Positions 24,506 to 44,022 of a DNA stretch of 59,352 nucleotides are shown here, piece by piece (position 1 is the stretch's first letter; every line of letters starts with the position of its first letter). This DNA comes from a phage. Under the pieces are notes generated by a model, which did no database searches, was not told the origin of the DNA, and saw nothing but the letters and a program-made list of their open reading frames with translations. The position numbers and the translations under genes were made by a program. The stretch is taken from sequence record PZ564402.1. One strand, written 5' to 3'.

Positions 24506-24523
24506 TACATGCCAAACTGATAA

Positions 24524-24549
24524 AGCGCCTTCGGGCGCTTTTCTTTTAT
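24524..24549 (+). terminator. rho-independent terminator (GCGCC-TTCG-GGCGC + T-rich tract)
   Basis: UUCG tetraloop hairpin then TTTTCTTTTAT after major tail gene. Confidence 0.6.
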
Positions 24550-24601
24550 CTGCAAGTATGTGCTACATTAACGACGGATTAGCGCAAAGGAGATCCGTCA
24601 A

Positions 24602-25063
24602 ATGTCACTATCAGATTACACACCAGAAATCGAAGAAATCACCATCCCTGCCAGACGTGGTAAAAAGGCTGGCTCGTTTAACGTCCGTGGGCTTTCCTTC
24701 CACGACATTTCCAAAATCATCCGCGTTCACTATCATGACCTTGATGGCCTGTTCGACCTGTACCAGAAGACCGCCGGGGAAGACCTGACGGCCATTGCTA
24801 CCGGGCGTTTCGCCGTGTCGCTGGTATCAGATGCGCCGGGGCTGGTGGCCCACGTCATCGCGCTGGCCGCTGACGAAGAAGCCGAACTGGAAAAGGTTCA
24901 GACGCTTCCCCTGCTGGTGCAATTCGACGCCTTGAAGAAGATTGCCGGACTGACGTTCTCGGACGTTGAAGAAGTAAAAAAGATGTTCGCTCAGGTAATG
25001 GAGCAGATCGGCAAGATGAAGGGCGAAGAGGCGGTGTCGAAACCCGGTCAAAGCGCGAAATAG
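24602..25063 (+). CDS. tail assembly chaperone (lambda gpG-like)
   Basis: Position immediately upstream of tape measure gene; contains slippery heptamer. Confidence 0.65.
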   Translation: MSLSDYTPEIEEITIPARRGKKAGSFNVRGLSFHDISKIIRVHYHDLDGLFDLYQKTAGEDLTAIATGRFAVSLVSDAPGLVAHVIALAADEEAELEKVQTLPLLVQFDALKKIAGLTFSDVEEVKKMFAQVMEQIGKMKGEEAVSKPGQSAK

Positions 25064-25305
25064 TTCTCGACTTCCACAATAACCTTCGTGCCACGGTGTC
25101 CTTCCTCATGTCCGAGGGACACCCGGCCGCCCGGCATTACCCGTTAGGATATTTGTGGTCAGAAACGAAAATCGCGAAGCGCCGGGTAAACGCGGGTTAT
25201 GTCACCCAAAGTTTACTGATGCAGTCCTGTATCGGCGCTGTACTCAACGGCAAGAAAGGCGGGAAAGAGTATAAAAAACTAATCAAGGAATTATCAGATG
25301 GCTAA
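24602..25305 (+). CDS. tail assembly chaperone frameshift fusion product (gpGT-like; -1 shift at 24976-24982)
   Basis: Downstream ORF 25096-25305 lies in -1 frame, is open back to 24970 and ends overlapping tape measure start. Confidence 0.55.
24976..24982 (+). other. programmed -1 ribosomal frameshift slippery heptamer A_AAA_AAG
   Basis: X_XXY_YYZ in chaperone frame; the -1 frame is open from 24970 to 25305. Confidence 0.6.
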
Positions 25306-28300
25306 CAGCAAAGACGTCGAGCTACGAATCCGGGCGAGGGACTACAGCCAAAAGCCCTTAAAGGCTGTGACCAGCGCTATCGAACAGATGGCAAAGGCGC
25401 AGGACGAACAGCGTAAAGCAGCCGAGCGCGGTGAAGTCTCGACGCGTGATCTGGAAGCCGCATACAAAAAGCTGGAAAGTGCCGGGAGCCAACTGCTCAA
25501 ACTCAACTCGCTGATCGAGGTGTTCAAACGGCAGAATCAGGCTATGACGGAGGCGACGGCCAAGACCGAAGGACTCCGCCAGAAACAGGCCGATCTCCAG
25601 AAGACCTACGATTCCACCGAGAAGGTTACGCAGAAACAGGAACGGGCGCTGGCCCGGGTTACACGTCAGGTCGAAGCCGCAACCCGCGCGGAAGCGAATC
25701 AGGCCGAGCGTGTCAATCGGGCAACCCGCGACCTCGAACGATACGGGATCGAGACGTCGAAAGTTGGGGCGGCCCAAGCGGGTATCGTCACCAGCGTCGC
25801 GCAGGTCAACCGTGTCCTCGAACGTCAGGACGAAATCATTTCAACGTCTGCCGCTGCGGCCGCACAAGCGAAGGTCATTCGCGGATTGCAGCAGCAGGCG
25901 GATCAGGCGATGGCAACGGCGCGCGGGTACCAAACCCTCGGCCGCGTGGTGCAGCAGGCAACCGGACAACTCGGGCCGCTTGGCACGCAGATCCAGACCA
26001 TCGTCAGCCCGGCAGAAGCGGCGCGCCGCACGCTGTCCGGACTTGAGAATCAGGTACACGGCGTTACCGCAGAACTGGCTCGCAATAGCAAGGAAGTGGA
26101 AAACGTCGCTCAAAAAGTAAGAATGCTCAACGAGGCGAATAAAACCGTCTCGGCGCTGGCGCAGCAAATCGACCTGTACCGTCAGCAGGTGGCAACCCTT
26201 CGGAACGCCCGCACTGAATACCAACAAGCGCGACAAGACGTCATCAAGTTAGCACAGCAGATGCGCACCGCGACAACTGATACGGGTGCTTTAGGTATTC
26301 AGATGCAGGCCGCCCAACAACGGCTTTCCGCAGCCGCGACGGCCATGCGAAACACGGCCACGGCCGCCCGGTCTACCCAAGCGGCATTACGTGCTGCGCA
26401 GGTGGACACGCGTAACCTGTCCGATGCGGAAGCCCGGCTGATCTCCACCAGCCAACAATCGGCCGCAGCACTTAACACGCTGTCCACCGCGACCAACCGT
26501 AACAGCCAAGCGGCGCGCGACGGGTCGAAAGCGTGGTCACTGTTCCGCGACGAGGGCCGTACCACGCTGTCCTTCCTGCAACGTATTCGCGGTGAAGTGC
26601 TGGCGCTGACGACCACGTATGTCGGTTTTCAGGGGGCTATCAATCTGGCGGGAGGCGCGATCGACGCGTACAAGAACCGTCAGCAGGCGATGGTCAAAAT
26701 TGCGAACGTGGTGGGTAACAGCCAAGCGGCCATTAACAAAGAGTGGGAATACATGGTCGGTCTGGCGAATACGCTCGGGATCGACATCACCACCCTGTCA
26801 CAGTCGTACACGAAATTCGCCGTATCCGCGAAGGCGGTCGGCCTGTCATTGCAGGACTCAAAGTTCATCTTCGAAAGCGTAGCGAAAGCGGGCCGTGTAT
26901 TCCACCTGTCACAAGATGACATGGAAGGCGTATTCCGCGCGCTGGAACAGATGTTGTCGAAGGGTCAGGTGTATGCGGAAGAACTGCGCGGCCAATTGGG
27001 TGAACGTCTCCCGGCGGCCTTCGCGCTGTTCGCAAAAGGCATGGACATGACCACCGCCGAACTGATGAAGGCGATGGAAAACGGGGAAGTCACTGGCGAG
27101 GCGGTTATCAACTTCGCCCGCGAGCAGGCCAAAGCGATTGACGCTCAACTCGCCACGGCGCAGAAAGGTGTCGATGCGATGGAAGCGCGCGCCCGCAACG
27201 CCATGAACGCATTTCAACTGGCATTGGCCGACGCAGGCTTTATCGAAGCGTACGTGCAGATGCTTAACAAGATCACCGACTTCCTGAACAGCGAGGATGG
27301 TCGGGCGGCCGCCGTTAAACTCGGCGAGGCGTTCGGCACGTTGGCCGACGCTGTGACGTGGTGCATCGAGAACGTGGACACGCTGATCACCGCGTTAAGC
27401 GTTCTGGCCGGGCTGAAAGTGGTGCAGTTCATCGGCGGCATGATTTCGGGACTTAAAAACCTGCTGCCGCTGTTCAGCACGCTCGGTAAAATCGGCGATG
27501 GCATTATAACGATGCTGGAAGGTGTCGCGGCCAGAATGATTGCGGCACAAGGGGCCGTAGGGCTTCTCGGCATCGCGTTGAAAGGGCTGACCCGGTTAAT
27601 CCCGATTGTCGGGTGGGCGCTGCTGGCGTACGACATCGGTGCCATCATGTACGACCAGTCGCAGACCTTCCGCGAGGCGGTCAACGCGATCATCCGGGAC
27701 TTCAAGAACCTCGGGAATCAACTGGCAGCCGTCGTCGAGTCCATCCCGGCGCTGCTGTACGATCTGGCGGTATCGGTGCTGCGCCCTATTACCACGATGT
27801 TCGCCGACACCACGCAGGCGATTATTAAGTGGATCGCGGATGTTCTGAAACTGATCCCGGGCGTTGGTCAAGGGCTGTCCGAGTGGGCCATGTCCATCGG
27901 CGACGACCTGACGAAAGAGCAGCGTGGCTTCCTCGAATCGACTGGCCGCATTTGGGACGACGTCAATAAACAGTGGGTGAAACTGAACGACGAAATGGTC
28001 GCGAAGAACGCCGATGCGACTGACAAGATTCGCGGGCAGGTCAACCAACTGGCCGCCGACATGGCCGCTATCACGAAGGGCGAAGGATTCCAGTTCACCC
28101 AAGACCCGGGAACAGGCGTCACGAAGCGCAGCCGCGAGATCGCGGGCCTGACGAAAGAGTTAGGCAAGATGGAAGAGGCGGCCAAAAAAGCGGACGTCGC
28201 GTCGCGTAAAGCCGAGCAGCGGAAGAACCTGTCCGGCCGCCTCGCCATCATTGACGAGGAATTTGCGCCGCAGTACGCCCGCGCTAAGTCGATCGGCGGC

Positions 28301-32357: not shown

Positions 32358-32596
32358 TGAGCAGACACGACGAGCCGCAGGATCAGCCGCGCATCTTTAT
32401 GCGCCATGCCCGGAAACTCGGGTATTGCAAAAACGGGTCGGAGCGCTTGGCCGAGCGCTTCGGTATCACCTTCGAACAATTCCTACGGGAAGGCTACCCG
32501 GTAGCGGAAGCCATGAAGTCCGCAAACCCGCTGCTGCGTAAAGCCGCAGCCGTGGCCCAACAAGAATGGGACGAGGCGCACGCACATGGGAAGTAA
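32357..32596 (+). CDS. hypothetical tail-region protein (79 aa)
   Basis: ORF coupled between flanking tail genes. Confidence 0.35.
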   Translation: MSRHDEPQDQPRIFMRHARKLGYCKNGSERLAERFGITFEQFLREGYPVAEAMKSANPLLRKAAAVAQQEWDEAHAHGK

Positions 32597-35500
32597 AGCC
32601 AAGAAGATTACGGTTGGGTACAAATACTACATGGGCCTGTTTATGGGCCTTTTCCGTGGCCCGGTGAATGAGATTGTCGAGATCCGCGTGGGCGACCGCA
32701 CCGCGTGGACAGGCTCAATCACTGGCAACACAACCATCCAGATCAACCGCGAAGACTTGTTCGGCGGCACGAAGGCGGAAGGGGGCATTGATGGCCCGCT
32801 CGAAGTTTATATGGGCGCGCCGACGCAGACCGTCAGCCAGAAGTTAAAGAACATGCTCGGCGGCCGCCAGCCGGAATTCCGTGGTGTCGTTACCGCGTAT
32901 TTCGACGGCCTGATCTGCGCCATGAACCCTTACCCGAAGCAGTGGAAATTCAAGGCCCGCCGCTCTACGGCCGGGTGGACAGGAGGCGTCTGGTATCCGG
33001 AAAAATGTCTGGTCAAGATGCAGGGGTACGACGGTCAGGGCAATCAGCACGAAATCCATGCCATGAACCCTGCGCACATCCTGTATGAATGCCAGTCGAA
33101 CTACGAGTGGGGCCGTGGCCTGTCACGCACGCTTATCGACGACACGACGTTCCGCCTCGCGGCCGACACCCTGTTTAACGAGAACTTCGGCCTTTGCATC
33201 CGATGGAACCGTCAGGACACGCTCGAATCGTTCATGCAGCTTATCCTCGACCACATCGGCGGCGCGATGTACGTCAGCAAAGTGACGGGCAAACTGTCCC
33301 TGCGGTTGATCCGGAAGGACTACGACTTCGACACGCTGCCGATCTTCGACACGGATTCCGGGCTGCTGTCCATTCAGGAAGCGACCAACGCGTCTCCGGC
33401 CAATCTGGTTAACGAAGTAGTCGTGACTTACCACAACCCGATTATGGACGAAGACCAGCAGGTGCGTAGCCACAACCTCGCGCAGATCCAGAATCAGGGC
33501 TGTCTGAACAGCAACACGATTGAATACCTCGGCATCCCTACCGGGAAACTGGCGATGCAGGTGGCACAGCGTGACTTGCGCGCCGCGTCTACCAACGTCC
33601 GCCGTTTCACCGTGATCTGTGACCGCCGGGCATGGAACGTGCAGCCGGGCGACGTGCTGAAAGTGCGTGACCCGAAACAGCGCGGCCTGACCGAAGTTGT
33701 TATCCGCGTCGGTACCGTTGAAGATGGCACGCTGCCGGACGGCAAGATCAAGATTGTCGCGCTGCAAGACCAGTTCGCCTTCCAGTTAAACACGTTCAAC
33801 CAAGTCGAGCCGCCATCCGGATACGAGCCTGACCTGACTCCCGCGATTGCCCGCCGTATCGTGTACGAAATGCCGTACGTGGATCTGGTGCAGCAGCTAC
33901 CGGACGGCGAACTGAACGCCGTTGGCCCGAACGATGCGTTCATCAACTCGCAGGCCGAGAAGCCGACTGACATGTCCGCCGCGTATGACATGGGTATCAT
34001 GGCCGAAGGTGAATCGGGCTTCGACATCCGTGGCAACGGTGACTTCGGTGCGTTCGGATCGCTGGCCGCCGACATCGACTACCTGTCAACGCAAATCATC
34101 CTGTCCGAAATGACCGACATGTGGGACGACGTTCAGCCGGGCTTCGTGGCGCGCATCGCCAAGCCTGTTCTTGACGGCCAACGCACGCAGATGGAAATCG
34201 CCGAAGAGTTTGTCCGCATCGACGCCATCAATGGCAACGTGATTACCGTGGCGCGCGGTGTACTCGATACCATCCCATTCCGCCACCAGAAAAGCGAAAT
34301 GCTTTGGGTGACGACGTACGACGGCGGTACCGACTGGCAGAAATACGCGGGCAACGAGTCCATCGACATCAAGATTCTGCCGTGGACATTGGGCGGTGGC
34401 CGCTTCCCGATTGAAGATGCGCCGATTGATCATCTGGACATGGACTTCCGCCAGATCCGCCCATACCCGCCGGGCAACGTGCAGCACTATCTCGCTTCGA
34501 CGTCAACGCTGCAACGCTGGTATGTCCCGTCCGCGCTTACCTACACGGCCAACGCCGGGGAAACGCCTGACACGTACACCCTGACTTGGGCGCACCGCGA
34601 CCGTATCCTGCAAGCGGATAAGCCTGTGCCGCACACCGACGGCGACATCGGGCCAGAACCGGGTACCACGTACACCATCCGCGTCTACAATCAGGAAGGG
34701 ACGTTGGTTCGCACCGAGTCCGGTATCAACGGCACGTCGTGGAATTGGCCGTACGCAACCGCAGCGGCGGACATGAATGTCGAAGCCAGCCTGTTCGACC
34801 CGGTGCTCGCGACGCTCCGCCTGACGTCTGTCCGCAGCGGCCGCGAAAGTTGGGAATACTACGAAATGAAGGTCAGCGTTTATAAGAAGCCTCCGCAGTT
34901 CGTGTATAACGCCAGCCTGATGCAGTTCGCCGCGCAGCCGTACAACGCCGCCAGTGATCCTAACCCGCCAACGCCACCGATGGACGGCCCGTATGTTTCG
35001 TCCCTGATGCAGTTTGCCGCGCAGCCAGATGGTAGCGATGACTTCGGCCCGGCGGAAAGCATGAATGGCCCGAACGTGGCGCTACTGCCGCACCAAGTCA
35101 CGCAGACGTCGTCAATCATTACGCCGCTCGATACGCTGCTGTATGAAACGCCGTACATCCAGTTATCCCGCGACGGCCGTGACCTAAATACATCGAAAGT
35201 CAGCGCGTACGTGGCGCGTTCGTCCGACCGTACCGTCGATTCGTACACCCTGTTCACCAAGCACGAAACGGACGCGAACTACACGTCGGCCGGGACTCAG
35301 CCGTGGACACCGTGGGGCATGTCAACCGTCGGCCTCGGCTTCTTCACGGACGAAGTGACCATCGACCCAACGTCCGATAAAGACGGCGTTCCGGTAGCTC
35401 CCGCGAAGGTTGGTGATCTGCTGCTTATCGATCAGGAATTGGTGTCCATTACCGCCATCAACGGCCGCACGTATAAGATTGGTCGTGGCGTAGCAGATAC

Positions 35501-36476
35501 CATCCCGGCGCAGCACTACAGCAGCCGTCCTGTCTGGCTGATCTCCGTGGGCTTCGGCTACTCCGACATGGCATTCGGCGACAACGAAAAAGCGATGGTC
35601 ATCATCCGCCCGGATACCTACGGCACCGACATTCCGTTGAGCAAGCTGTACCCGCTCCAATTGCAGATGCAGTACCGTCCGAAACGTCCATACCCGCCGG
35701 GCCTGATGATGATTGGCGGCCAACCGTTCTTCAATACCGCGAGCGGACTGGCTGACGATTTCAACCCGTACGACAACCTGAAAGCGAAGGACGTGGTATG
35801 CACATACGCACACCGCAACCGTGTATCGCAATCCACCACGGCGCGCGACCACTTCGCCGTCGGCATCACCCCGGAACCGGGCGTGAAGTACCGCGTGCGC
35901 ATTGGTTATGCGTACTGGTCGCAGTCAGGTAGCGGCTTCTCGCTGCTGTCTCAGTTCGAAACGGAAGACGCTGGCTTCATTATGCGTGCCGCCGACCTCG
36001 AACGTTGGGGCCGTCAGGCGGGCTATGCGCAGGACGCTGGTGGCTATTCCACGTTAAACGTGACCGTCAACGCGATTCGTGATGGAATGCTGAACTGGCA
36101 GGGATATACGATGACCGTGCGCGTGCCGTCCTTCCCCCTTCCTCCGGGACAGAAACCGGGTGGTGGCGATGGGCCGTGGAACCCGCCGGGCGGTGGCAAT
36201 ACTGGCGGTACTACTCCGCCGACGGAGCCGCCGGATCGTCCAGACCCGAGCGAGCCGGGTACCACTGACCCATCCGAGCCGACGAAGCCGGACGAGCCGG
36301 AAGAACCGCAGCCGCCAGTCGATCCGGAAGACCCGGATACTGACCCGCCGGAACCGCCGGAACCGCCCGTTGACCCGACCAACGTACCGGGCTGGTCATT
36401 GAGTTGGGATCACGGTTGGGCGATGACACTGCCAGATTTCCGATATGTTCCACCAGCAGACGAGGAACCTGAATAA
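32586..36476 (+). CDS. tail tip / host specificity protein (lambda gpJ-like), 1296 aa
   Basis: N-terminus KITVGYKYYMGLF and overall size typical of gpJ family; C-terminal Pro/Glu/Asp-rich low-complexity segment. Confidence 0.8.
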   Translation: MGSKAKKITVGYKYYMGLFMGLFRGPVNEIVEIRVGDRTAWTGSITGNTTIQINREDLFGGTKAEGGIDGPLEVYMGAPTQTVSQKLKNMLGGRQPEFRGVVTAYFDGLICAMNPYPKQWKFKARRSTAGWTGGVWYPEKCLVKMQGYDGQGNQHEIHAMNPAHILYECQSNYEWGRGLSRTLIDDTTFRLAADTLFNENFGLCIRWNRQDTLESFMQLILDHIGGAMYVSKVTGKLSLRLIRKDYDFDTLPIFDTDSGLLSIQEATNASPANLVNEVVVTYHNPIMDEDQQVRSHNLAQIQNQGCLNSNTIEYLGIPTGKLAMQVAQRDLRAASTNVRRFTVICDRRAWNVQPGDVLKVRDPKQRGLTEVVIRVGTVEDGTLPDGKIKIVALQDQFAFQLNTFNQVEPPSGYEPDLTPAIARRIVYEMPYVDLVQQLPDGELNAVGPNDAFINSQAEKPTDMSAAYDMGIMAEGESGFDIRGNGDFGAFGSLAADIDYLSTQIILSEMTDMWDDVQPGFVARIAKPVLDGQRTQMEIAEEFVRIDAINGNVITVARGVLDTIPFRHQKSEMLWVTTYDGGTDWQKYAGNESIDIKILPWTLGGGRFPIEDAPIDHLDMDFRQIRPYPPGNVQHYLASTSTLQRWYVPSALTYTANAGETPDTYTLTWAHRDRILQADKPVPHTDGDIGPEPGTTYTIRVYNQEGTLVRTESGINGTSWNWPYATAAADMNVEASLFDPVLATLRLTSVRSGRESWEYYEMKVSVYKKPPQFVYNASLMQFAAQPYNAASDPNPPTPPMDGPYVSSLMQFAAQPDGSDDFGPAESMNGPNVALLPHQVTQTSSIITPLDTLLYETPYIQLSRDGRDLNTSKVSAYVARSSDRTVDSYTLFTKHETDANYTSAGTQPWTPWGMSTVGLGFFTDEVTIDPTSDKDGVPVAPAKVGDLLLIDQELVSITAINGRTYKIGRGVADTIPAQHYSSRPVWLISVGFGYSDMAFGDNEKAMVIIRPDTYGTDIPLSKLYPLQLQMQYRPKRPYPPGLMMIGGQPFFNTASGLADDFNPYDNLKAKDVVCTYAHRNRVSQSTTARDHFAVGITPEPGVKYRVRIGYAYWSQSGSGFSLLSQFETEDAGFIMRAADLERWGRQAGYAQDAGGYSTLNVTVNAIRDGMLNWQGYTMTVRVPSFPLPPGQKPGGGDGPWNPPGGGNTGGTTPPTEPPDRPDPSEPGTTDPSEPTKPDEPEEPQPPVDPEDPDTDPPEPPEPPVDPTNVPGWSLSWDHGWAMTLPDFRYVPPADEEPE

Positions 36477-37216
36477 TGCCGAAAAAGACAGCCCCGAATC
36501 AGGGGCTACCCTACGGGTGGATTCGCGGGGAAGACTATTGGGGCGGCCCGATGTCCGACTCGCAGATCTTCCTCGACACCACGCTATTCCTGACACTGGA
36601 ATCGCTGACCTTCTCCGCTCCGCCGCCGGACGTGGTGGACGGGGCCACCTACGTCGTCGCGGCTAACCCGACGGGTGCGTGGGCCGGACATGAAGGCGAT
36701 GTGGCCGTGTACGTGGAAAAGGTCTGGACGTTTTACAAGCCTCGCTACGGATGGCGCGCTCGCGTCCGTTCGTACGAGAAATTCTTGTGGTTTAACGGCA
36801 CGACGTGGCTTGACGAGGCGACCGGGGAAGACCCGGTCAACCCTGACCCCGACCCAAGCGTTAAGCCGAAATGGTACGACATCGGGGTGACGGTGTCGGA
36901 CAGCATGTACGCGAATGAACCTGTCGTGCATCTGCCGATCCTTGACCCGATGTACCTGCCTGCCAATATGGTCGGCTCACAGTTTGACATGGCCGACGGC
37001 GCAAGCCCGGCCTATTACCAATTCCGCGTGCAGCGCAACGGCCAGAACGTCGCAACGATGACCGTGGAAATCGGAAACTTCAACGCATCGTTTACCACTG
37101 CCGGGGGCAACCCGATTTCCTTCGCCGCCGGGGATCGCATGACGGTTCGCGCGCAGCAGGAAGCCGTCGCCGGGATGAAAAACTTTGGCTTCGTAATTCG
37201 CATGGGACTGGTCTAA
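36476..37216 (+). CDS. hypothetical tail protein (246 aa)
   Basis: ORF coupled to J-like stop. Confidence 0.45.
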   Translation: MPKKTAPNQGLPYGWIRGEDYWGGPMSDSQIFLDTTLFLTLESLTFSAPPPDVVDGATYVVAANPTGAWAGHEGDVAVYVEKVWTFYKPRYGWRARVRSYEKFLWFNGTTWLDEATGEDPVNPDPDPSVKPKWYDIGVTVSDSMYANEPVVHLPILDPMYLPANMVGSQFDMADGASPAYYQFRVQRNGQNVATMTVEIGNFNASFTTAGGNPISFAAGDRMTVRAQQEAVAGMKNFGFVIRMGLV

Positions 37217-37225
37217 GGGGATCAC

Positions 37226-38233
37226 ATGGCAAGTTATTTTGATGGATATGAGCAGTTCCGTTCGACGGACACGTCTAACCCGGGAACCTTTATGCGGCTC
37301 GCCGGGTACACGGTTCGAGGCGCGATTTCGGCGGGTCTTGGCCGCCTCCCGGCGAGCATCGGACTGTACACGCTGAACAGCGCCTACGAGCGCGACTGGA
37401 CGTGGGGTGGCGACACCCTCACCATCGGCTTTGCGTGCAAGCAGCAGGAGCGTGGCGCGCTATTTGGGCTAAAGGTCGGTGACGCCACTGGCCGCGATGT
37501 TCCGCATGTCGTTGTCTACACTGACCCGGTGTCGGCGCTCGTCACCATCCAGACCGGGCCAGACCAGTCGGAAGTCGGGTATGTCACGCCGATCCCGACA
37601 CGCTGGTACTACTACGAAGTCGTGATGAACCGCGCCACGAAGGTTATCGAGGTGTTCGTTAACGGGAAGTCCGACGTGGCGTTCACGCTGCCGGACGTCC
37701 TCGCGGCGTCGGCCGTTGTGCGCATGGTCTTCAACCCGTTCGACATGCTCCCGGCGTTCCCTGCCGATGCGAACTACAAGGAAGACACGAAAGTATTCGA
37801 CGACATGTATGCGCAGGACGGCGGCCGTTTAGGGGCCATCCAGATTAGCGGACGACTGCCGGACGGCGACCGTGACACCGAATGGGGTGTGGCCGGGCCT
37901 AACCCGACGGCCGCACATAACCAGATGGTCGGCCGACTGCCGCCAGACATGGCAAATCGGTTTATCTATACTGGCACGAATGACCGCCATGACTCGTTTA
38001 TCTCGTCGGCGAAGTTACCGGATAACGGGGCTATTCTGGCGCAGGGACTGATCGCATTAGTCCGGAAGGCCACGGCCGACCCGGTGTCGATTATCGCGAA
38101 CATTGACAGCCACACTGTTACCCTGTCGAATATCGGCCGTAATTGGGAATATCGTTACGCGCAATTCACCACAAGCGGTTATGATCGAGCCGCCATTGAA
38201 GCCGCCGAATTCGGTGTGCGTTCAGTAATTTAA
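37226..38233 (+). CDS. tail-associated paralog 1 (335 aa)
   Basis: Shares N-terminal F-DGY-EQ and RWYYYEVVMNRATKVIEVFVNG motif with three following genes. Confidence 0.6.
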   Translation: MASYFDGYEQFRSTDTSNPGTFMRLAGYTVRGAISAGLGRLPASIGLYTLNSAYERDWTWGGDTLTIGFACKQQERGALFGLKVGDATGRDVPHVVVYTDPVSALVTIQTGPDQSEVGYVTPIPTRWYYYEVVMNRATKVIEVFVNGKSDVAFTLPDVLAASAVVRMVFNPFDMLPAFPADANYKEDTKVFDDMYAQDGGRLGAIQISGRLPDGDRDTEWGVAGPNPTAAHNQMVGRLPPDMANRFIYTGTNDRHDSFISSAKLPDNGAILAQGLIALVRKATADPVSIIANIDSHTVTLSNIGRNWEYRYAQFTTSGYDRAAIEAAEFGVRSVI

Positions 38234-38243
38234 AGGGGTTACT

Positions 38244-39206
38244 ATGCTGAAATTTATGGACGGTTTTGACCAGCTACGCGGCTGGTCTGACGTTACTGAT
38301 GGGCTGACCAAATGCGGGTACACCGTGTCTGGCACGCCCACACTGGAGGAAGGGCGTGTGGCTACGCAGATGGCGGTATCGCTGCCGGACACGGCCAGCC
38401 TGAAACGCGTGTTCACCTCCGGGGCCACGAAGGTCGTGTTTGGCTTTGCCTTCCGCGCTATCGGGAAACGCCACACCCTCGTCACCATCAAAGATGTTGC
38501 GACGGTTACGTGGGACGAGACTAACGGGAAGATCACGGCCGCTGGCGGTACCGGAACAGCGGTGCTGCTGCTGGACTTGTGGTACTACATCGAAGTGGTT
38601 CTGGACAAGACTACCAGCACGATCGAGGTGTACGTGAACAACGGGCCGGACATCACCGCGCCATCGCCGTCGAGCGCTAACCCGGTCACTAACTATGAAG
38701 TCACATGGGCGGGCGTTGCCACGGCGCAGTACCTTCTCGACGACATCCAGTTCATCGACAACCAGCCGGGTAAGTATACCGGGCGCATCGGGCCTATCCA
38801 GATCACCAGCCGCTTGCCGATGGTGGACGTGGACAAAGAATGGTCGCCGTCATCCGGCAATGATCACTACCCGCTCGTCTACAATCAGCCGCCCGTCGAA
38901 GGGTCGTACATCCAGTCGAACACGTCCGGCGCGACCGACACGTTTCTATCAAACACCGTCATCCCTGATACGCAAAACATTCTGGCCGTCGGCATGACCG
39001 TGCTGAACAAAAAGTCAGACGTGGACAACCGTCAGTTAGGCATGGTCATCGGCCAAAAAGGCGACACGCAAAAAGAAGTTATCGACGCGGCGCTATCCAC
39101 GACTGAAAAGTATAGTTATGCTGTGTTCGAGACGAACGCGGCCGGGCAAGACTGGAATGACGAACGACTCAGCGAAGCGCCGTTCGGCGTCATCGTAAGA
39201 CCATAA
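38244..39206 (+). CDS. tail-associated paralog 2 (320 aa)
   Basis: MLKFMDGFDQ and LWYYIEVVLDKTTSTIEVYVNN shared motifs. Confidence 0.6.
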   Translation: MLKFMDGFDQLRGWSDVTDGLTKCGYTVSGTPTLEEGRVATQMAVSLPDTASLKRVFTSGATKVVFGFAFRAIGKRHTLVTIKDVATVTWDETNGKITAAGGTGTAVLLLDLWYYIEVVLDKTTSTIEVYVNNGPDITAPSPSSANPVTNYEVTWAGVATAQYLLDDIQFIDNQPGKYTGRIGPIQITSRLPMVDVDKEWSPSSGNDHYPLVYNQPPVEGSYIQSNTSGATDTFLSNTVIPDTQNILAVGMTVLNKKSDVDNRQLGMVIGQKGDTQKEVIDAALSTTEKYSYAVFETNAAGQDWNDERLSEAPFGVIVRP

Positions 39207-39219
39207 GGAGCATACCGAA

Positions 39220-40239
39220 ATGTTTAAATTCTGTGACGGGTACGACCACTATGCCGAAATCGGCGCGAAGGGTACGGCCCTACAAAGTTATCTGGAAGCC
39301 GCCGGGTACGTGGTGCGTAATGCCAGCGATTCCACGTTTTCCGTTGTCGAGGGCCGCCGGACAGGTGCGCGTGCGCTGAAATTCACCGTGGCCGCCAGTT
39401 CATCTGTCAACGCCTCACTGTCATGGGGATTCACCACGACGGCCTCGTCAGTCGTCTTCGGATTTGCCATGAAAGCCGGGCTGTCCCGTATGCGTATCGC
39501 GCGCATCGAGAACATCGTGGACATCGAGTGGGACACCACGACCGGGAAAATCCGCGTAGGCGAGCAGTTAGGCGTCAACCCGCTGATCCTGAACGCATGG
39601 TATTACTTTGAAATCGAGATCGATAAGACGGCCAATACCGTCAAGATCTACGCGAATAACGAATTGCAGTTAACCGTTACGCCATCGAGTGCGCCGACCA
39701 CCACGTACACAATCGTTTGGGGGCAGACGGGTACCGCGCCGAATGCGGGCGAACAGACACTGGACGATTTCTACGTTATCGATGGTTCTGGTAGCCGCAA
39801 CAACGCGCGCCTGACTCCGGTCGAAGTGACCAGTCGTATGCCAACGGCCGACGTTTCTACGCAGTGGGAAGTCGTGAACGCCTCATCTGCCACGCCGCAC
39901 TATCAGATCGTGTCACAGCTTTCCCCGGGCGGCGAGTCGAAGCCATACCTGCAATCGAACACCGCAGGAGCGACCGATATGTACCGTTCGAACGTGACGC
40001 TGCCGAACAATAACCAGATCTTCGCCGTATCTGTTATCGCGTACGCCCGTAAAGGCGACCTTGATGACCGTAAACTCGGTCTGGTAGTCAACACGGAAGG
40101 CGGAACGCCGACTGAAATTCAGGTGCCGCTGACCGAGTCGTACAAGTATTATCAGGCATCGTTCGAGCAAGCGCCGGGCGGAAGTGACTGGAACCAGAAC
40201 AACGTCGAATCTTTGCAATTCGGCATCATCACTCGATAA
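39220..40239 (+). CDS. tail-associated paralog 3 (339 aa)
   Basis: MFKFCDGYDH and AWYYFEIEIDKTANTVKIYANN shared motifs. Confidence 0.6.
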   Translation: MFKFCDGYDHYAEIGAKGTALQSYLEAAGYVVRNASDSTFSVVEGRRTGARALKFTVAASSSVNASLSWGFTTTASSVVFGFAMKAGLSRMRIARIENIVDIEWDTTTGKIRVGEQLGVNPLILNAWYYFEIEIDKTANTVKIYANNELQLTVTPSSAPTTTYTIVWGQTGTAPNAGEQTLDDFYVIDGSGSRNNARLTPVEVTSRMPTADVSTQWEVVNASSATPHYQIVSQLSPGGESKPYLQSNTAGATDMYRSNVTLPNNNQIFAVSVIAYARKGDLDDRKLGLVVNTEGGTPTEIQVPLTESYKYYQASFEQAPGGSDWNQNNVESLQFGIITR

Positions 40240-40253
40240 GGGAGGGATTCACT

Positions 40254-41480
40254 ATGCCTGTAGTTTGGCACTGCGGTTTTAATGGGATCATCAATAACAC
40301 GATGAGTCAGGGTCAGTCGAACCTGTTTATCAACACAAACGATACCGTGGCGGGGGGCCATGCCCTCTCCAGCGACAATTTAATCAACAACGTCTTCGGG
40401 CGCGGCAACGGCCTCCAAAATGGCGGCTTTCTCCCTCTGATCACTTACTACGGATGTAAATGGACGACAAACGGGGCGTACGGGTCGTCTTATGTTTTTG
40501 GTCGTGTTAAGCCGTCTTTCTTTGATAACTCCGTGCCATGCCTAAGCACCGAGCTATACCAACCTGCTACCACTTCCGACTGGTGGGTGGGATGGCAGTT
40601 CCGTATCGATTTGTGCTGGCCTTCGGCGGAACGCCTGACGACGTCGTGGCGCATGGGCTTCCGTATTGGCCGAGCAACACACCCCACACGCGATATTGGT
40701 TATCAAGTCTATATCTGCCCGGCAGGTATTAACGGTGCAGAAGGCCGAGACTTATATCGTATCCCGATCACTGCGGGTCAGGACGAGAAGTATATGGAGG
40801 TGGAATGGTTGGCGGATACCAAGACCCTTAACATCTATCTGAACGACGAACTTGTCTCGACCCGCACCAACTACACCGCCTACGATATGTCGTACGGCCT
40901 TATTTTGGTGTGCGAACATTTCGTTGGCTCTACCACTAGCTCCACACCGTTCTTCGGTTTTGAACTGCGGGACATGTATGTCCAGAAAATTGTTTCAGAT
41001 GCAGATCAACGCCTCGGGTCTTCGACAAAAGTATATGCGTTCAATCCCGTTAATGACGATGTTGTACAGTTCTCTCGGCCAGACGCATATTCGTCAAACG
41101 CCGCCGTCGCGGTAACGCCGATCTCTTCCGGGGGTATCACCCCGACGCCGTCGCAATCTACTGCAATTCTCGGGGCGGACGTGGTCGGACAGCAAGACCT
41201 GTATAACATTGACATTTCCAAAGTCAGCACACGTCTGGCGTCGATTGAAGCGGTTAACGTCCGGACGATGGCCCGAAATCCGTTGCTTGGAAATAGACAA
41301 TCTGCCGCGATCGCCAAGTCCGGGGCCGCTCAAACCCAAAGCGAGAACACATCGACGCTCGAACAAGGCGGCCTGTGGCGTTTCAACACGTTGCAGATGG
41401 TGTCTGACCCGGCGGATGGCTCGCGCTGGAACCTTACAAAACTGGCCGGGCTTAAAGTCGGTACCAAATTCGTCGCGTAA
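40254..41480 (+). CDS. tail-associated paralog 4, divergent (408 aa)
   Basis: YMEVEWLADTKTLNIYLNDE resembles shared beta-strand motif; same orientation and spacing. Confidence 0.5.
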   Translation: MPVVWHCGFNGIINNTMSQGQSNLFINTNDTVAGGHALSSDNLINNVFGRGNGLQNGGFLPLITYYGCKWTTNGAYGSSYVFGRVKPSFFDNSVPCLSTELYQPATTSDWWVGWQFRIDLCWPSAERLTTSWRMGFRIGRATHPTRDIGYQVYICPAGINGAEGRDLYRIPITAGQDEKYMEVEWLADTKTLNIYLNDELVSTRTNYTAYDMSYGLILVCEHFVGSTTSSTPFFGFELRDMYVQKIVSDADQRLGSSTKVYAFNPVNDDVVQFSRPDAYSSNAAVAVTPISSGGITPTPSQSTAILGADVVGQQDLYNIDISKVSTRLASIEAVNVRTMARNPLLGNRQSAAIAKSGAAQTQSENTSTLEQGGLWRFNTLQMVSDPADGSRWNLTKLAGLKVGTKFVA

Positions 41481-41489
41481 GGGGGCCAT

Positions 41490-43619
41490 GTGGCGGATGA
41501 AGACGTAGGTATCAGCGCGGCCAAACTGGTCGGCGAAGCCTTGCAGTGGAATGGCGAGAAGCCCAAACTCACATACCTGTCTAAGTGTGTGGGTGAAGCG
41601 TTAGCCATTTCCGCATTGAACATGGACGCGGCGAAAAACTTCGGGGAGGTTTTGCAGTGGGACGGTAAATTGCCGTCCATCTTCCGCGCGGCCGAATTGG
41701 TCGGCGAAGTGCTGGCGATTCAGAAGATGGAGATCCGCGCATCGTCAATGATTTGCGAAGCGCTGGTCAAAGAGCCGCAATTTATGGCGGCCGAAATGAT
41801 CTGCGAGGCTATCGGTCAGGCGGCCACGGAACGGCCACCGCTTTACGCAGATGCGGTTTATCAGTACGTCACGCAGCACGATGTCGTACCGCCGTTGTCA
41901 GATGTCATTTCGACGGAACGCCTGTACTCGCTGTGGAATTACGCCATTGTCCAGCGGCCGATCGATGCCCCGATTTCCTACAACATCGTGAAGCAGGCGG
42001 TGACGCTGTCCGTTCTGGCGTCGCCTATCGTGACTATTTCGTACGACAAGGTGAAGACCGCGTGGTCGTATGCCGTGGTGTCCGCGACGCTCGGTGACTT
42101 CCCGCTGCCGGATGAAATGTGGTCGAAGATCAGCACGAAACAGGCGTGGAATCTGGTATTGCAGTCGATCGACATCCCGTACGTCCCGACGTCTGGTGTG
42201 TTCGTTCGCCATGAATCGACGCTGGTGGTTCAGGCCCGTCCGCTGCCGATGTACACGACGCCTGCGTCCGTGAAGTCGAACGTAGTTCTGGCCGCGCAGA
42301 AGCGCCCGGTTGAACGACTCCCGCGCTCAAGGACTCGCGTGGCGCAGGCATTATCGCAGGCCGTTACCGCGTTGCCGATCCCGATGCCCCGGTCAAACGT
42401 GTTCGCCGCGCAGACGCTGTCACAGGCGGTCATCCCGGCGGACTTCGTTGACCCGACTGTCGGCGTCGAGCACGCGGCCGCAGTGACGTCGTACGCTGTT
42501 TGCGAGTATCAGGTGTCGCTTCCTATCAGTTACACTCGTGCGAAGTCCCTGACGCCGCTGGTGCTGCAATTTAGCGATAACCAACGAGCCATCCCGCTGT
42601 CCACGATGCGCACCAAACATGTTTCGTCTCAGTTCTTGGTCAAGTCTGACTTGCTCCCGGTGCTGTCTCGGACGCGCGTTAAACAGGTGCGCACGTACGC
42701 GGTGCAGGAGTCGGCCTACACGCCGCCGATTAACCTGCTGGTGTGGTCACGCGCCGATGCCGTTCGTACGTCGGTGGTGCAGCAGGCCACGGACTACCCT
42801 GACCCGGGCATCCCTACAACGTCGGCTATCGTCGGCGCGGCCACGGCGTATCACGTCATGAAAGCGCTGGACTACGAAGACCCGAACGACATGTGGGAAG
42901 CGAGCAAGGTTCAGATGGTGCCGCAGTTCTTAGAGAAGGTGCTGAAAGCCCAACCGCTGCGGCTCCCGATCTCGTACGCACCGTTGGCGCAATTCGTTGA
43001 ACTGGTCACGCGGTATCAGTACATGCCGCCGCCGGGCGAAGTGGCCGAGTCCGGTATCCACGTTCGTCAGGTGATGCAGCCAGTGGCGTTCCGTGCGACC
43101 TATCCTGACCCGACTGTCCCGGCGTCCTTCCTGACTGTCAATCAGGTGCTGGAGCACATCGCGATCCCGGCCGACTATCCGGATGTCCATCTGCCGACGT
43201 CGGACGCGATTGTAAATCAGGTATTAGAACACGTTGCGCAGATTGACGATTTCCCTGATCCCGGTACCATGTTCCGGCCGCTTATTGTCAGCCAGATCAT
43301 CCAGCAGGCGGCACAGGACGCGTCTTACCCGGATTGGAGCACACTGCATAAACCCATCGCGGTGCAGCAGGTGATTCAGCATGTATCAATGACAGCGGAG
43401 TACCCTGACAAGGACATCCCGCAATCATTTGCAGAAGTGTCTCAAGTTTTACAACACTATGCCGATATAGCTAATTACCCAGACAAAGATGCTCCCCAAT
43501 CCACGCTACGAGTCCGTCAGGTACTTGAGCAGGTAATGATGCGCGACAAGTCGATGTACGAAATGCCGCAGCCACCACGGAAACATCGGGTGCAAATCAC
43601 TTGCCGCTTTGTGTACTGA
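41490..43619 (+). CDS. highly repetitive fibre-like protein (GTG start, 709 aa)
   Basis: AAGGGGG RBS; about 25-30 degenerate 22-24-aa repeats (e.g. YPDxxxPxSxxxVxQVLxH); last structural gene before lysis cassette. Confidence 0.6.
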   Translation: MADEDVGISAAKLVGEALQWNGEKPKLTYLSKCVGEALAISALNMDAAKNFGEVLQWDGKLPSIFRAAELVGEVLAIQKMEIRASSMICEALVKEPQFMAAEMICEAIGQAATERPPLYADAVYQYVTQHDVVPPLSDVISTERLYSLWNYAIVQRPIDAPISYNIVKQAVTLSVLASPIVTISYDKVKTAWSYAVVSATLGDFPLPDEMWSKISTKQAWNLVLQSIDIPYVPTSGVFVRHESTLVVQARPLPMYTTPASVKSNVVLAAQKRPVERLPRSRTRVAQALSQAVTALPIPMPRSNVFAAQTLSQAVIPADFVDPTVGVEHAAAVTSYAVCEYQVSLPISYTRAKSLTPLVLQFSDNQRAIPLSTMRTKHVSSQFLVKSDLLPVLSRTRVKQVRTYAVQESAYTPPINLLVWSRADAVRTSVVQQATDYPDPGIPTTSAIVGAATAYHVMKALDYEDPNDMWEASKVQMVPQFLEKVLKAQPLRLPISYAPLAQFVELVTRYQYMPPPGEVAESGIHVRQVMQPVAFRATYPDPTVPASFLTVNQVLEHIAIPADYPDVHLPTSDAIVNQVLEHVAQIDDFPDPGTMFRPLIVSQIIQQAAQDASYPDWSTLHKPIAVQQVIQHVSMTAEYPDKDIPQSFAEVSQVLQHYADIANYPDKDAPQSTLRVRQVLEQVMMRDKSMYEMPQPPRKHRVQITCRFVY

Positions 43620-43640
43620 TTAATGACGGGTTAATATTCT

Positions 43641-43668
43641 TAGCGGGCTTGTCCCGCTAATTTTTTAT
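43641..43668 (+). terminator. rho-independent terminator (TAGCGGG-CTTGT-CCCGCTA + T6)
   Basis: Perfect 7-bp stem and T-tract after fibre-like gene. Confidence 0.65.
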
Positions 43669-43683
43669 GTGAGGAAGCACCCA

Positions 43684-44022
43684 ATGAGCGAAATGGAACG
43701 GGAACGGCCGGGGGATAACTCCGGCGGCATCAAGTTAGACCTGTCTGTCAATCTCCCCACGATTCTGACGATGGCTTCGATGCTGGTGGCGGCGGTACTG
43801 TACGTCAACAACCGCTTCGCCGACCTGTCAAATCAGAACACGCAGACGGACACCCGGCTGACCAACGTCGAGAAACGTCAGGACTCCACTGACGCGGCGT
43901 TCACGGTTCTCCGGGCCGAAACCGTCTCGCAAAACTCCGCCCTTCGTTCAGACCTTCGCGCCGACATGCGCGACCTGAAACAAAGCGTGGATGCCCTATC
44001 TTCCCAAATGATGAGGAAATAA
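43684..44022 (+). CDS. putative holin (single TMD)
   Basis: GAGGAAG RBS; one hydrophobic helix LPTILTMASMLVAAVLYV; immediately upstream of endolysin. Confidence 0.5.
   Translation: MSEMERERPGDNSGGIKLDLSVNLPTILTMASMLVAAVLYVNNRFADLSNQNTQTDTRLTNVEKRQDSTDAAFTVLRAETVSQNSALRSDLRADMRDLKQSVDALSSQMMRK

What the first reader, a model, noticed from the sequence alone, without database searches (positions are those of the whole stretch)
41490..43619. 709-aa protein built almost entirely of degenerate 22-24-residue repeats
The last structural gene contains about 25-30 copies of a repeat such as YPDP-x-P-x-S-x-V-x-QVL-x-H, plus shorter N-terminal VGEAL-type repeats. A regular helical or fibrous architecture is implied, and it is a candidate long tail fibre or adsorption filament. 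The periodicity is visible directly in the translation.
Basis: seen in the sequence. Interest (0 to 1): 0.65.

Follow-up and report, generated by a model that had tools for sequence, protein, structure and literature searches.

The report
Repeat-built virion protein of Chi-like phage
The last late gene of this Chi-like, flagellum-riding Salmonella phage encodes a 709-residue protein made of about 30 short degenerate repeats with no known fold. Its counterpart in a related phage is a low-copy virion protein, so it is a strong but unproven candidate for part of the long fibre that grips the bacterial flagellum.

Summary
ORF 41490-43619 (+, GTG, 709 aa) holds 23-24 degenerate repeats of 20-29 residues (aa ~118-685; the last six are exactly 25 aa), six shorter N-terminal units, and a conserved 24-residue C-terminal tail. 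Periodicity is far above chance: lag-25 z=13.5, profile self-alignment E=2.5e-42, repeat HMM 98 bits against at most 6.8 in shuffles.

The window is a Chivirus genome (95% nucleotide identity to YSD1; capsid protein identical to Chi). The gene equals YSD1_35 / CHI_36, annotated 'hypothetical', PHROG 7226. It has no Pfam, NCBIfam or PDB relative. AlphaFold2 monomer models fail (pLDDT 28 and 49).

The gene ends a conserved host-recognition cassette: J-like hub, adaptor, four paralogs, then this protein, then a terminator and the lysis genes. Non-flagellotropic Klebsiella relatives have replaced the cassette.

The syntenic ortholog in flagellum-dependent Serratia phage JS26 (gp49) was found in purified virions with 68 peptides and 88% coverage, at an abundance like the trimeric hub. 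None of the cassette proteins appears in the solved Chi tail tip.

Best reading: a low-copy structural subunit of the flexible flagellum-binding fibre apparatus (confidence about 0.6). The literature, however, assigns the fibre to YSD1_29. Fold, oligomeric state and exact location are still unknown.

The parts
41490..43619 (+). Complete ORF: 709 aa, 78.6 kDa, pI 5.9. Equals YSD1_35 / CHI_36; member of PHROG 7226.
41480..41485 (+). Ribosome-binding site AGGGGG, 4 nt upstream of the GTG start. The stop codon of the preceding gene is at 41478-41480.
   Evidence: read directly from the sequence
41490..41840 (+). N-terminal region, aa 1-117. Six short units of 16-20 aa carry G/C-E-A/V-L/I, with a 37-aa super-period. 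This is the most variable part: 45% of sites vary within Chivirus, and more distant genera carry different N-terminal repeat types.
41841..43094 (+). Degenerate repeats, aa 118-535: one partial unit plus R01-R17, each 20-29 aa. Each has a Pro-rich linker, a P-x-S motif and a ~13-residue amphipathic core with a conserved Gln.
42603..42668 (+). One 22-aa unit (aa 372-393) that is exactly tandem-duplicated in the 731-aa relatives (Utah, iEPS5 type).
43095..43544 (+). Six crisp 25-aa repeats R18-R23, aa 536-685, pattern A-x-[YF]-P-D-x-x-x-P-x-S-x-x-x-V-x-Q-V-[LI]-[EQ]-[HQ]-V-A-x-x. This is the most conserved repeat block: 7% of sites vary within Chivirus.
43545..43616 (+). C-terminal tail, aa 686-709, DKSMYEMPQPPRKHRVQITCRFVY. 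Most positions are invariant or near-invariant among the 23 homologs of alignment A1 (down to 35% identity), and it has the highest mean conservation of any segment among the 66 more diverse homologs. It ends in an amphipathic strand-like segment. Inferred to be the docking end.
43640..43670 (+). Terminator-like hairpin (8-bp stem, 5 G-C pairs) plus T-run, just after the stop codon. It separates the late structural operon from the lysis cassette.
32586..36476 (+). Context: J-like hub / 'minor tail protein', 1296 aa (= YSD1_29, CHI_30, PDB 8vjh_A). The literature calls this protein the tail fibre.
36476..37216 (+). Context: 246-aa 'tail fiber protein' (= YSD1_30, CHI_31). Its N-terminal 112 aa are shared with the PIN1 adaptor.
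37226..40239 (+). Context: three tandem paralogs of 335, 320 and 339 aa (phrog_2448).
40254..41480 (+). Context: 408-aa protein whose C-terminal half is a distant paralog of the three above. It is the divergence hot spot of the cassette: 55-80% nucleotide and 76% amino-acid identity to YSD1/Chi.

Best explanation
The gene encodes a low-copy (about three per virion) structural protein of the tail-tip adsorption apparatus of a flagellotropic Chi-like siphophage. It is most likely a segment of the long, flexible, flagellum-binding fibre that hangs from the J-like hub.

The chain is a string of about 30 short modules. Each has a Pro-rich linker ([YF]-P-D...P-x-S) followed by a ~13-residue amphipathic core with a conserved Gln.

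The conserved C-terminal repeats and the invariant tail (PPRKHRVQIxCRFVY) are inferred to dock it to a conserved virion partner. The hypervariable N-terminal units, which diverge together with the neighbouring hypervariable 408-aa protein, are inferred to sit at the host-specific end.

Shown:
- the repeat architecture;
- membership of a small, phage-restricted family;
- the conserved position at the end of the receptor-binding cassette;
- virion incorporation of the JS26 ortholog.

Inferred: location in the fibre, trimeric state, the polarity of attachment, and contact with the flagellum.
For: 1. Virion protein. JS26 gp49 (record 23663-25786, 707 aa) is the full-length syntenic homolog (tblastn E=2e-26, 88% coverage; locus map) and has the same repeats and tail. 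In LC-MS/MS of purified JS26 virions it gave 68 unique peptides, 1241 PSMs and 87.9% coverage. The J-like gp56 gave 2748 PSMs over 1272 aa, the distal tail protein 1508 PSMs over 561 aa, and the endolysin gene's product gp47 only 10 PSMs. That is 1.8 PSM per residue against 2.2-2.7 for the hub proteins, which points to low copy number.

2. Cassette position. The order J-like hub, 246-aa adaptor, 3-5 paralogs of 320-410 aa, this protein, then lysis genes is conserved in Chivirus, Lavrentievavirus (Proteus) and Dunedinvirus (Serratia). Klebsiella phage PIN1 has an 86% identical capsid protein and is non-flagellotropic. It keeps only the hub N-terminus and the adaptor N-terminus, and has two unrelated fibre/spike genes instead.

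3. Distribution. Homologs occur in phages of Salmonella, Escherichia, Proteus, Providencia, Serratia, Hafnia and Cronobacter. Chi, YSD1, iEPS5, Utah and JS26 are documented as flagellum-dependent.

4. Unresolved in the solved tail tip. PDB 8vjh (Chi tail tip) holds the J-like hub, the distal tail protein and BH1P. None of the six downstream cassette proteins is in the PDB, although the JS26 cassette proteins gp49-gp55, which include their counterparts, are all in virions. The fibre is the one unresolved virion element.

5. The J-like protein alone looks insufficient for a 220-nm fibre. Residues about 850-1180 are a domain shared with many non-flagellotropic siphophages, and only about 110 Pro/Glu/Asp-rich residues are Chi-specific.

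6. Fast evolution typical of host-range proteins. Identity to Proteus and Serratia orthologs is 27-28%, against 42-59% for the hub, adaptor and paralogs. There is an N-to-C gradient of variability.

7. A distant family member, P0097 (1536 aa, on a 229-kb contig), fuses these repeats to an F5/8-type-C domain that matches 'tail protein' PHROGs.

8. AlphaFold2 monomer failure (pLDDT 28 and 49) is compatible with an obligate oligomeric or partner-dependent fibre.
Against: - Published immunogold and neutralisation data assign the long fibre to YSD1_29 (reported second-hand). No paper accessible here mentions YSD1_35 or CHI_36.
- Virion presence is shown for a 27%-identical ortholog, not for this phage.
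- There is no similarity to any known fibre domain.
- Glycine content is 2.3%, against 8-9% in the neighbouring tail proteins.
- The conservation polarity is the reverse of classical fibres.
- Secondary structure is unresolved. The hydrophobic period of the repeat core is in the helical range (85-95 degrees). Chou-Fasman propensities are ambiguous, and the low-confidence AlphaFold2 model draws strands.
- PSM counts are only a rough proxy for copy number.
Confidence: 0.6

Rival explanations
1. Accessory tail-tip protein that is not part of the long fibre. The fibre proper would be the C-terminal part of the J-like protein, as published. The 709-aa protein would form a separate short or flexible appendage at the tip, for example one that engages the secondary cell-surface receptor (LPS or AcrAB-TolC) after the phage has travelled down the flagellum.
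For: - Immunogold assigns the fibre to YSD1_29.
- Chi-like phages need a second receptor at the cell surface.
- The protein is a virion component in the receptor-binding cassette.
- Its reversed conservation polarity is unlike classical long fibres.
Against: - Micrographs are described as showing a single fibre and no other appendage.
- Most of the J-like C-terminal region is a domain common to non-flagellotropic phages.
- Seven cassette proteins are in JS26 virions, and all have to be located somewhere.
Confidence: 0.2
2. Fibre assembly scaffold, ruler or chaperone that stays bound. The repeat array would act as a template that sets the length or register of the fibre built from the upstream paralogs, rather than contacting the host itself.
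For: - It is the last gene of the fibre cassette, the usual position of fibre assembly factors (established knowledge of T4 gp38 and lambda Tfa).
- Family length is tightly held, mostly 640-710 aa, despite identity of about 25%.
- The monomer has no autonomous fold.
Against: - Known fibre chaperones are small, about 150-250 aa.
- The JS26 ortholog is retained in virions at roughly stoichiometric level.
- It evolves fast and has a hypervariable end, which fits host contact better than an internal ruler.
- Relatives tolerate a one-repeat insertion.
Confidence: 0.1
3. Virion-carried ejection or membrane-active protein. The roughly 30 Pro-punctuated amphipathic segments, reminiscent of apolipoprotein 22-mers, would insert into or coat membranes during genome delivery.
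For: - The repeat cores are amphipathic with a helical-range period, and 0 of 5000 permutations reach the observed moment.
- Prolines punctuate the units.
- The gene lies next to the lysis cassette.
Against: - A terminator separates it from the lysis genes.
- It is co-inherited with receptor-binding genes and lost together with them in PIN1.
- There is no transmembrane segment, signal peptide or Pfam apolipoprotein match.
- In siphophages the tape-measure protein normally fulfils this role (established knowledge).
Confidence: 0.05
4. Non-structural late protein. The repeats would be incidental and the JS26 detection a contaminant.
For: No virion data for this phage were accessible. The gene is annotated only as hypothetical.
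Against: The JS26 ortholog showed 87.9% coverage and 1241 PSMs, against 10 PSMs for the endolysin gene's product in the same preparation. The gene also has a conserved position inside the tail module.
Confidence: 0.03

Closest known systems
PHROG 7226 / YSD1_35 / CHI_36 / JS26 gp49 (uncharacterised Casjensviridae proteins)
   Same: Full-length homology: PHROG E=0 over aa 43-709, and 94-96% amino-acid identity to YSD1_35 and CHI_36. The locus position and repeat architecture are the same.
   Different: Nothing differs; this is the family it belongs to. The family has no assigned function, and no paper reachable here describes its repeats.
Classical phage long tail fibre proteins (T4 gp34/gp36/gp37, lambda Stf, T5 pb1)
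   Same: A low-copy virion protein encoded at the distal end of the tail gene module. It is fast-evolving and repeat-containing, and its monomer is not foldable by AlphaFold2.
   Different: There is no sequence, Pfam, PHROG-category or fold match. It is Gly-poor at 2.3%. The hydrophobic period is in the helical range rather than beta-like. The C-terminus is conserved and the N-terminus variable.
T4 fibritin (gp wac), a segmented coiled-coil fibre
   Same: A chain of amphipathic helix-like segments interrupted by loop or Pro linkers. This resemblance comes from established knowledge and the pattern.
   Different: The cores here are only about 13 residues, roughly two heptads, and the units are regular at 22-25 aa. 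There is no foldon-like end domain and no sequence similarity.
Exchangeable apolipoproteins (apoA-I 22-mer Pro-punctuated amphipathic helices)
   Same: Unit length of 22 residues, proline punctuation and an amphipathic core.
   Different: There is no Pfam match. The context is a virion tail, and there is no evidence of lipid binding. This is a resemblance recalled from memory, not a tested relationship.
Beta-solenoid repeat fibres (curli CsgA, parallel beta-helix tailspikes)
   Same: Repeat length of 20-25 residues, with a conserved Ser and Gln in each unit.
   Different: There is no period-2 hydrophobic alternation, Gly and Asn are scarce, and AlphaFold2 does not build a solenoid.

Membership tests
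PHROG 7226 (Casjensviridae repeat protein, function unknown) | Full-length match to the family profile | tested here: met
   E=0, 1281.9 bits, aa 43-709 against profile positions 1-667 of 667
Casjensviridae receptor-binding cassette | Encoded as the last gene after the J-like hub, the 246-aa adaptor and the phrog_2448 paralogs, immediately before the lysis genes | tested here: met
   The same order is seen in YSD1, Chi, Proteus phage Inception and Serratia phage JS26. The cassette is absent from Klebsiella phage PIN1.
Phage tail fibre protein (generic) | Component of the purified virion at low copy number | tested here: inconclusive
   Met for the JS26 ortholog gp49: 68 peptides, 1241 PSMs, 87.9% coverage. 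No virion data for this phage, Chi or YSD1 were accessible.
Phage tail fibre protein (generic) | Recognisable fibre domain or fold (Pfam, PHROG 'tail' category, PDB or predicted-structure match) | tested here: not met
   No hit in Pfam or NCBIfam. The PHROG category is 'unknown'. No PDB sequence hit at E<=1. The BFVD fold search returns only family members, with TM-scores of 0.30 or less.
Phage tail fibre protein (generic) | Conserved N-terminal virion anchor and variable C-terminal receptor-binding end | tested here: not met
   The polarity is reversed. Within Chivirus, 45% of sites vary in aa 1-130 and 7-8% in aa 536-709.
Phage tail fibre protein (generic) | Elongated homotrimer located at the tail tip | not testable with these tools
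   Only monomer AlphaFold2 was available, and both runs were of low confidence.
Beta-solenoid / parallel beta-helix repeat proteins | Period-2 hydrophobic alternation in the repeat strands and a confidently predicted solenoid | tested here: not met
   The hydrophobic-moment spectrum peaks at 85-95 degrees, not 160-180. AlphaFold2 pLDDT was 28 and 49.
Coiled-coil / segmented coiled-coil fibres (fibritin-like) | Heptad-type hydrophobic periodicity over runs of several heptads | tested here: inconclusive
   A period of about 3.8-4.2 residues is seen in 21 of 23 repeat cores. Each core is only about 13 residues and is flanked by prolines. Propensities are ambiguous.
Collagen-like phage fibre proteins | Gly-X-Y triplet runs | tested here: not met
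   Gly is 2.3% of residues (16 in all) and no G-X-Y runs are seen in the translation.
Apolipoprotein A1/A4/E family | Match to the Pfam apolipoprotein models | tested here: not met
   No Pfam family at E<=0.1. The resemblance is limited to 22-residue Pro-punctuated amphipathic units.

The most novel reading that the evidence does not exclude
The repeat array is a new kind of filament-gripping module. Each 22-25-residue unit (a short amphipathic core plus an extended Pro-rich linker, up to about 5 nm if stretched) would engage one flagellin subunit along a groove of the flagellar filament, much as nebulin repeats track actin subunits. About 30 weak contacts in series would then give the multivalent yet sliding 'nut-on-bolt' grip that lets Chi-like phages ride the rotating flagellum. 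If so, the protein, rather than or together with YSD1_29, would be the real flagellin-binding part of the fibre, with a fold unlike any known tail fibre.
Probability: 0.15. Interest if true: 0.85.

Novelty: new variant of a known kind. Interest (0 to 1): 0.55.

Why it matters
Phage Chi has been the textbook flagellotropic phage since the 1930s-60s. Even so, the composition of its single ~220-nm fibre and the way it grips a spinning flagellum remain unsettled. Different papers name different genes: YSD1_29 in one and CHI_31 in another, and one states outright that the Chi fibre protein has not been shown experimentally.

This analysis makes three points:
- Six proteins encoded after the hub are missing from the solved tail tip, although their counterparts in a related phage are in the virion.
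- The largest of them is a 30-unit repeat protein of unknown fold.
- That protein's variability pattern points to host contact.

This gives a concrete, testable candidate for the flagellum-binding element. It also offers a target for host-range engineering of Salmonella and Proteus phages.

Tried and rejected
- Tandem Repeats Finder on the DNA found nothing, so the repeats are visible only at protein level.
- A repeat HMM seeded on the six crisp C-terminal units did not spread to the degenerate middle repeats: 8 hits after 6 iterations. Segmentation needed profile self-alignment.
- Pfam, NCBIfam and PDB sequence searches gave no hits.
- AlphaFold2 on the full length with 23 sequences gave pLDDT 28. 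AlphaFold2 on aa 405-709 with 66 sequences gave pLDDT 49. Neither model is usable.
- The BFVD fold search with the second model returned only family members at TM-scores of 0.30 or less. The other fold libraries were not searched, because the model is too poor.
- The repeat HMM and BLASTP did not confirm a suspected similarity between the repeats and the duplicated SLMQFAAQP motif in the J-like C-terminus, or any other cassette protein.
- Chou-Fasman propensities do not discriminate helix from strand.
- Literature searches for YSD1_35, CHI_36 and CHI_37 and for Chi-like virion proteomics found nothing on this protein, apart from the JS26 supplement. One search was largely wasted on unrelated 'chi' strain numbers.
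- The key papers Dunstan 2019, Sonani 2024 and Choi 2013 are not held. They may contain virion mass spectrometry that already lists this protein.
Full report
**What the window is.** The 2130-bp region matches 107 phage records. Almost all are Chi-like Salmonella or Escherichia phages, and identity to YSD1 is 95.5% over the full length. The major capsid protein is 100% identical to that of phage Chi. The window is therefore essentially a complete Chivirus (Casjensviridae) genome. The target ORF corresponds to YSD1_35 and CHI_36, both annotated 'hypothetical protein'.

**Checking the observation.**
- The ORF is 41490-43619, + strand, GTG start, 709 aa.
- An AGGGGG ribosome-binding site lies 4 nt upstream. 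The N-terminus MAD is conserved in homologs down to 35% identity, so the start is sound.
- BLOSUM autocorrelation against 500 shuffles gives lag 25 z=13.5 in aa 531-690 (with harmonics), lag 22 z=4.7 in aa 111-430, and lag 37 z=8.0 in aa 1-125.
- Self-comparison of a 23-sequence family profile gives off-diagonal alignments at E=2.5e-42, 2.3e-24 and 1e-11 across aa 115-693.
- Mapping residues equivalent to the Ser of P-x-S gives 23 in-register repeats (aa 131-685). Spacings are 20-29, and the last six are exactly 25.
- A general repeat HMM (consensus YPDPDLPISPVRVAQVVQQVAQ) finds 24 units at 98.3 bits, against at most 6.8 bits in 100 shuffles.
- Six shorter N-terminal units (G/C-E-A/V-L/I at aa 15, 35, 52, 72, 89, 105) complete the picture.
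- A 24-residue tail, DKSMYEMPQPPRKHRVQITCRFVY, is the best-conserved segment of the protein.
- In 731-aa relatives one 22-aa unit is exactly tandem-duplicated. This is independent evidence for the unit and for its modular tolerance.
- There is no DNA-level tandem repeat.

The period is 20-29 residues (modes 22 and 25), not 22-24. The literal YPD motif is confined to six copies.

**Anatomy of a unit.** Across 66 homologs and 23 repeats, conserved positions relative to the Ser (position 0) are an aromatic residue at -8, Pro at -7, Asp at -6, Pro at -2, Ser at 0 and Gln at +6. Hydrophobic positions are +4, +7/+8 and +11/+12.
- The hydrophobic-moment spectrum of the +1..+14 core peaks at 85-95 degrees in the mean profile and at 80-115 degrees in 21 of 23 repeats. 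None of 5000 permutations reaches the observed 100-degree moment. This is the helical range, not the beta range.
- Chou-Fasman propensities are undecided (Pa 1.07, Pb 1.12). The low-confidence AlphaFold2 model draws short strands there. I therefore leave the secondary structure open.
- Composition is unusual for a tail protein: Gly 2.3%, against 8-9% in the six neighbouring tail genes, and Pro 8.5%, with Val, Ala, Ser and Gln abundant.

**Family and structure.**
- There is no Pfam, NCBIfam or PDB sequence relative.
- The only family match is PHROG 7226, function unknown.
- An exhaustive HMMER search of 1.84 billion representatives finds only 57 relatives. Most are 640-710 aa.
- Close homologs sit on contigs of about 60 kb.
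- AlphaFold2 gave pLDDT 28 for the full length with 23 sequences and 49 for aa 405-709 with 66 sequences.
- A BFVD fold search returned only family members at TM-scores of 0.30 or less.

The fold is unknown, and it is not an easily predicted solenoid.

**Genomic context.** Upstream genes, in order:
- the tape-measure protein, the distal tail protein and BH1P;
- two small genes annotated in YSD1 as tail assembly chaperones;
- the 1296-aa J-like hub (YSD1_29);
- a 246-aa 'tail fiber protein';
- three tandem paralogs of 320-339 aa (phrog_2448);
- a 408-aa protein whose C-terminal half is a distant paralog;
- then the target.

A terminator-like hairpin at 43640-43660 and the lysis cassette follow.

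The same order is conserved in Proteus phage Inception and Serratia phage JS26. Klebsiella phage PIN1 has a capsid protein 86% identical but is described as non-flagellotropic. It retains only the hub N-terminus and the first 112 residues of the adaptor, followed by two unrelated fibre/spike genes. It has no homolog of the paralogs or of the target.

Homologs of the target occur in phages of Salmonella, Escherichia, Proteus, Providencia, Serratia, Hafnia and Cronobacter.

**Direct evidence of virion incorporation.** Serratia phage JS26 requires flagella for infection. Its gp49 (record 23663-25786, 707 aa) is the syntenic full-length homolog and has the same C-terminal [FY]PDKD..QS repeats and ...QIVY end. 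Results of LC-MS/MS on purified virions:

| JS26 protein | PSMs | Length (aa) | Other |
|---|---|---|---|
| gp49 (target ortholog) | 1241 | 707 | 68 unique peptides, 87.9% coverage |
| gp56 (J-like hub) | 2748 | 1272 | |
| Distal tail protein | 1508 | 561 | |
| BH1P-like | 743 | 273 | |
| Capsid protein | 27045 | 354 | |
| Tail tube | 14174 | 379 | |
| gp47 (endolysin gene's product) | 10 | – | |

Per residue, gp49 (1.8) is close to the hub proteins (2.2-2.7). This suggests a few copies per virion. All other cassette proteins (gp50-gp55) were also detected.

**Where in the virion.** The solved Chi tail tip (PDB 8vjh) contains the J-like hub, the distal tail protein and BH1P. None of the six downstream proteins is in the PDB. 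The PIN1 paper states that the C-terminal part of the hub is too flexible to analyse and that the fibre is formed by YSD1_29 according to immunogold.

Residues about 850-1180 of the hub are homologous to tail proteins of many non-flagellotropic siphophages (JBD26-like Pseudomonas phages, Rhodobacter and Vibrio phages). Only the last ~110 residues, a Pro/Glu/Asp-rich tract, are lineage-specific. It is hard to see how that alone builds a 220-nm fibre (length).

Another group names the 246-aa CHI_31 as the putative fibre gene and notes that the Chi fibre protein has not been shown experimentally.

My inference is that the fibre is a multi-protein assembly of the cassette products, and that the 709-aa repeat protein is one of its segments. 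This step is inference, not demonstration.

**Evolutionary pattern.**
- Within Chivirus the 408-aa neighbour is the divergence hot spot: 55-80% nucleotide and 76% amino-acid identity to YSD1/Chi. Divergence decays through the 5' half of the target, and its 3' third is 98-100% identical.
- Within the target, 45% of sites vary in aa 1-130 but only 7-8% in aa 536-709.
- Between genera, the target and its neighbour are the least conserved cassette members: 27-31% identity, against 42-59% for the others.
- More distant relatives carry a different type of N-terminal repeat.

This pattern fits a host-specific N-terminal end and a C-terminal end docked to a conserved partner. That polarity is the reverse of classical fibres.

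**Other hints.** One distant relative (P0097, 1536 aa, on a 229-kb contig) fuses these repeats to an F5/8-type-C domain that matches 'tail protein' PHROGs. It sits among several genes with similar domains.

**Verdict.**
The protein is very probably a low-copy virion protein of the adsorption apparatus (about 0.9 for structural, about 0.8 for tail-tip). It is plausibly, but not demonstrably, part of the long flagellum-binding fibre (about 0.6).
- It belongs to a small, uncharacterised, phage-restricted family with no detectable relationship to known fibre folds. I therefore rate it a new variant of a known kind.

Caveats:
- The virion evidence comes from a 27%-identical ortholog.
- PSM counts are only a rough guide to stoichiometry.
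- No multimer prediction was possible.
- The two most relevant papers (Dunstan 2019, Sonani 2024) could not be read. Part of this may already be known to specialists.

Noticed in passing
window 40254-41480: The 408-aa gene just upstream is the sharpest divergence hot spot of the tail module: 55-80% nucleotide and 76% amino-acid identity to YSD1 and Chi, while flanking genes are 94-100% identical. It is probably the main host-range determinant and may have been exchanged by recombination.
   Followed up: partly
window 37226-41480: Three tandem paralogs (335, 320 and 339 aa; phrog_2448; 23-36% pairwise identity) are followed by a fourth, more distant one. By eye, motifs such as NAWYYFEIEIDKTANTVKIYANNEL resemble LamG/ConA-like lectin domains. 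This was not tested.
   Followed up: partly
window 34875-36473 (J-like protein, aa 764-1296): The supposed fibre-forming C-terminal part of the J-like hub is mostly a domain shared with many non-flagellotropic siphophages. It ends in a ~110-residue Pro/Glu/Asp-rich low-complexity tract. It also has a duplicated SLMQFAAQP motif near aa 780-815.
   Followed up: partly
window 36476-37216: The first ~112 residues of the 246-aa 'tail fiber protein' are conserved in Klebsiella phage PIN1 (37% identity) while the rest is swapped. This suggests a conserved adaptor domain that plugs different receptor-binding modules onto the hub.
   Followed up: partly
window 43640-43670: A strong terminator-like hairpin (TTAGCGGG-cttgt-CCCGCTAA plus TTTTTT) lies between the last tail gene and the lysis cassette. 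This implies that the lysis genes are transcribed at least partly separately.
   Followed up: no
window 43669-44022: The first gene of the lysis cassette (117 aa, hydrophobic N-terminal segment, coiled-coil-like C-terminus) matches a PHROG called 'Rz-like spanin'. It precedes the endolysin, where a holin would be expected.
   Followed up: no
L003 10001-14611 (P0097, ENA tailings metagenome, 229-kb contig): A 1536-aa protein in a probable jumbo phage fuses an F5/8-type-C domain and a glycine-rich domain to PHROG-7226-type repeats. It lies in a run of large genes, one of which has the same lectin-like domain.
   Followed up: partly
phage database records matched: Several records labelled as Staphylococcus, Enterococcus or Listeria phages carry near-identical Chi-like or Proteus-phage-like sequence. 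Examples are Enterococcus phage Efm 3-10 (3 kb) and Staphylococcus phage SVV09-A. These are most likely mislabelled or contaminated entries.
   Followed up: no
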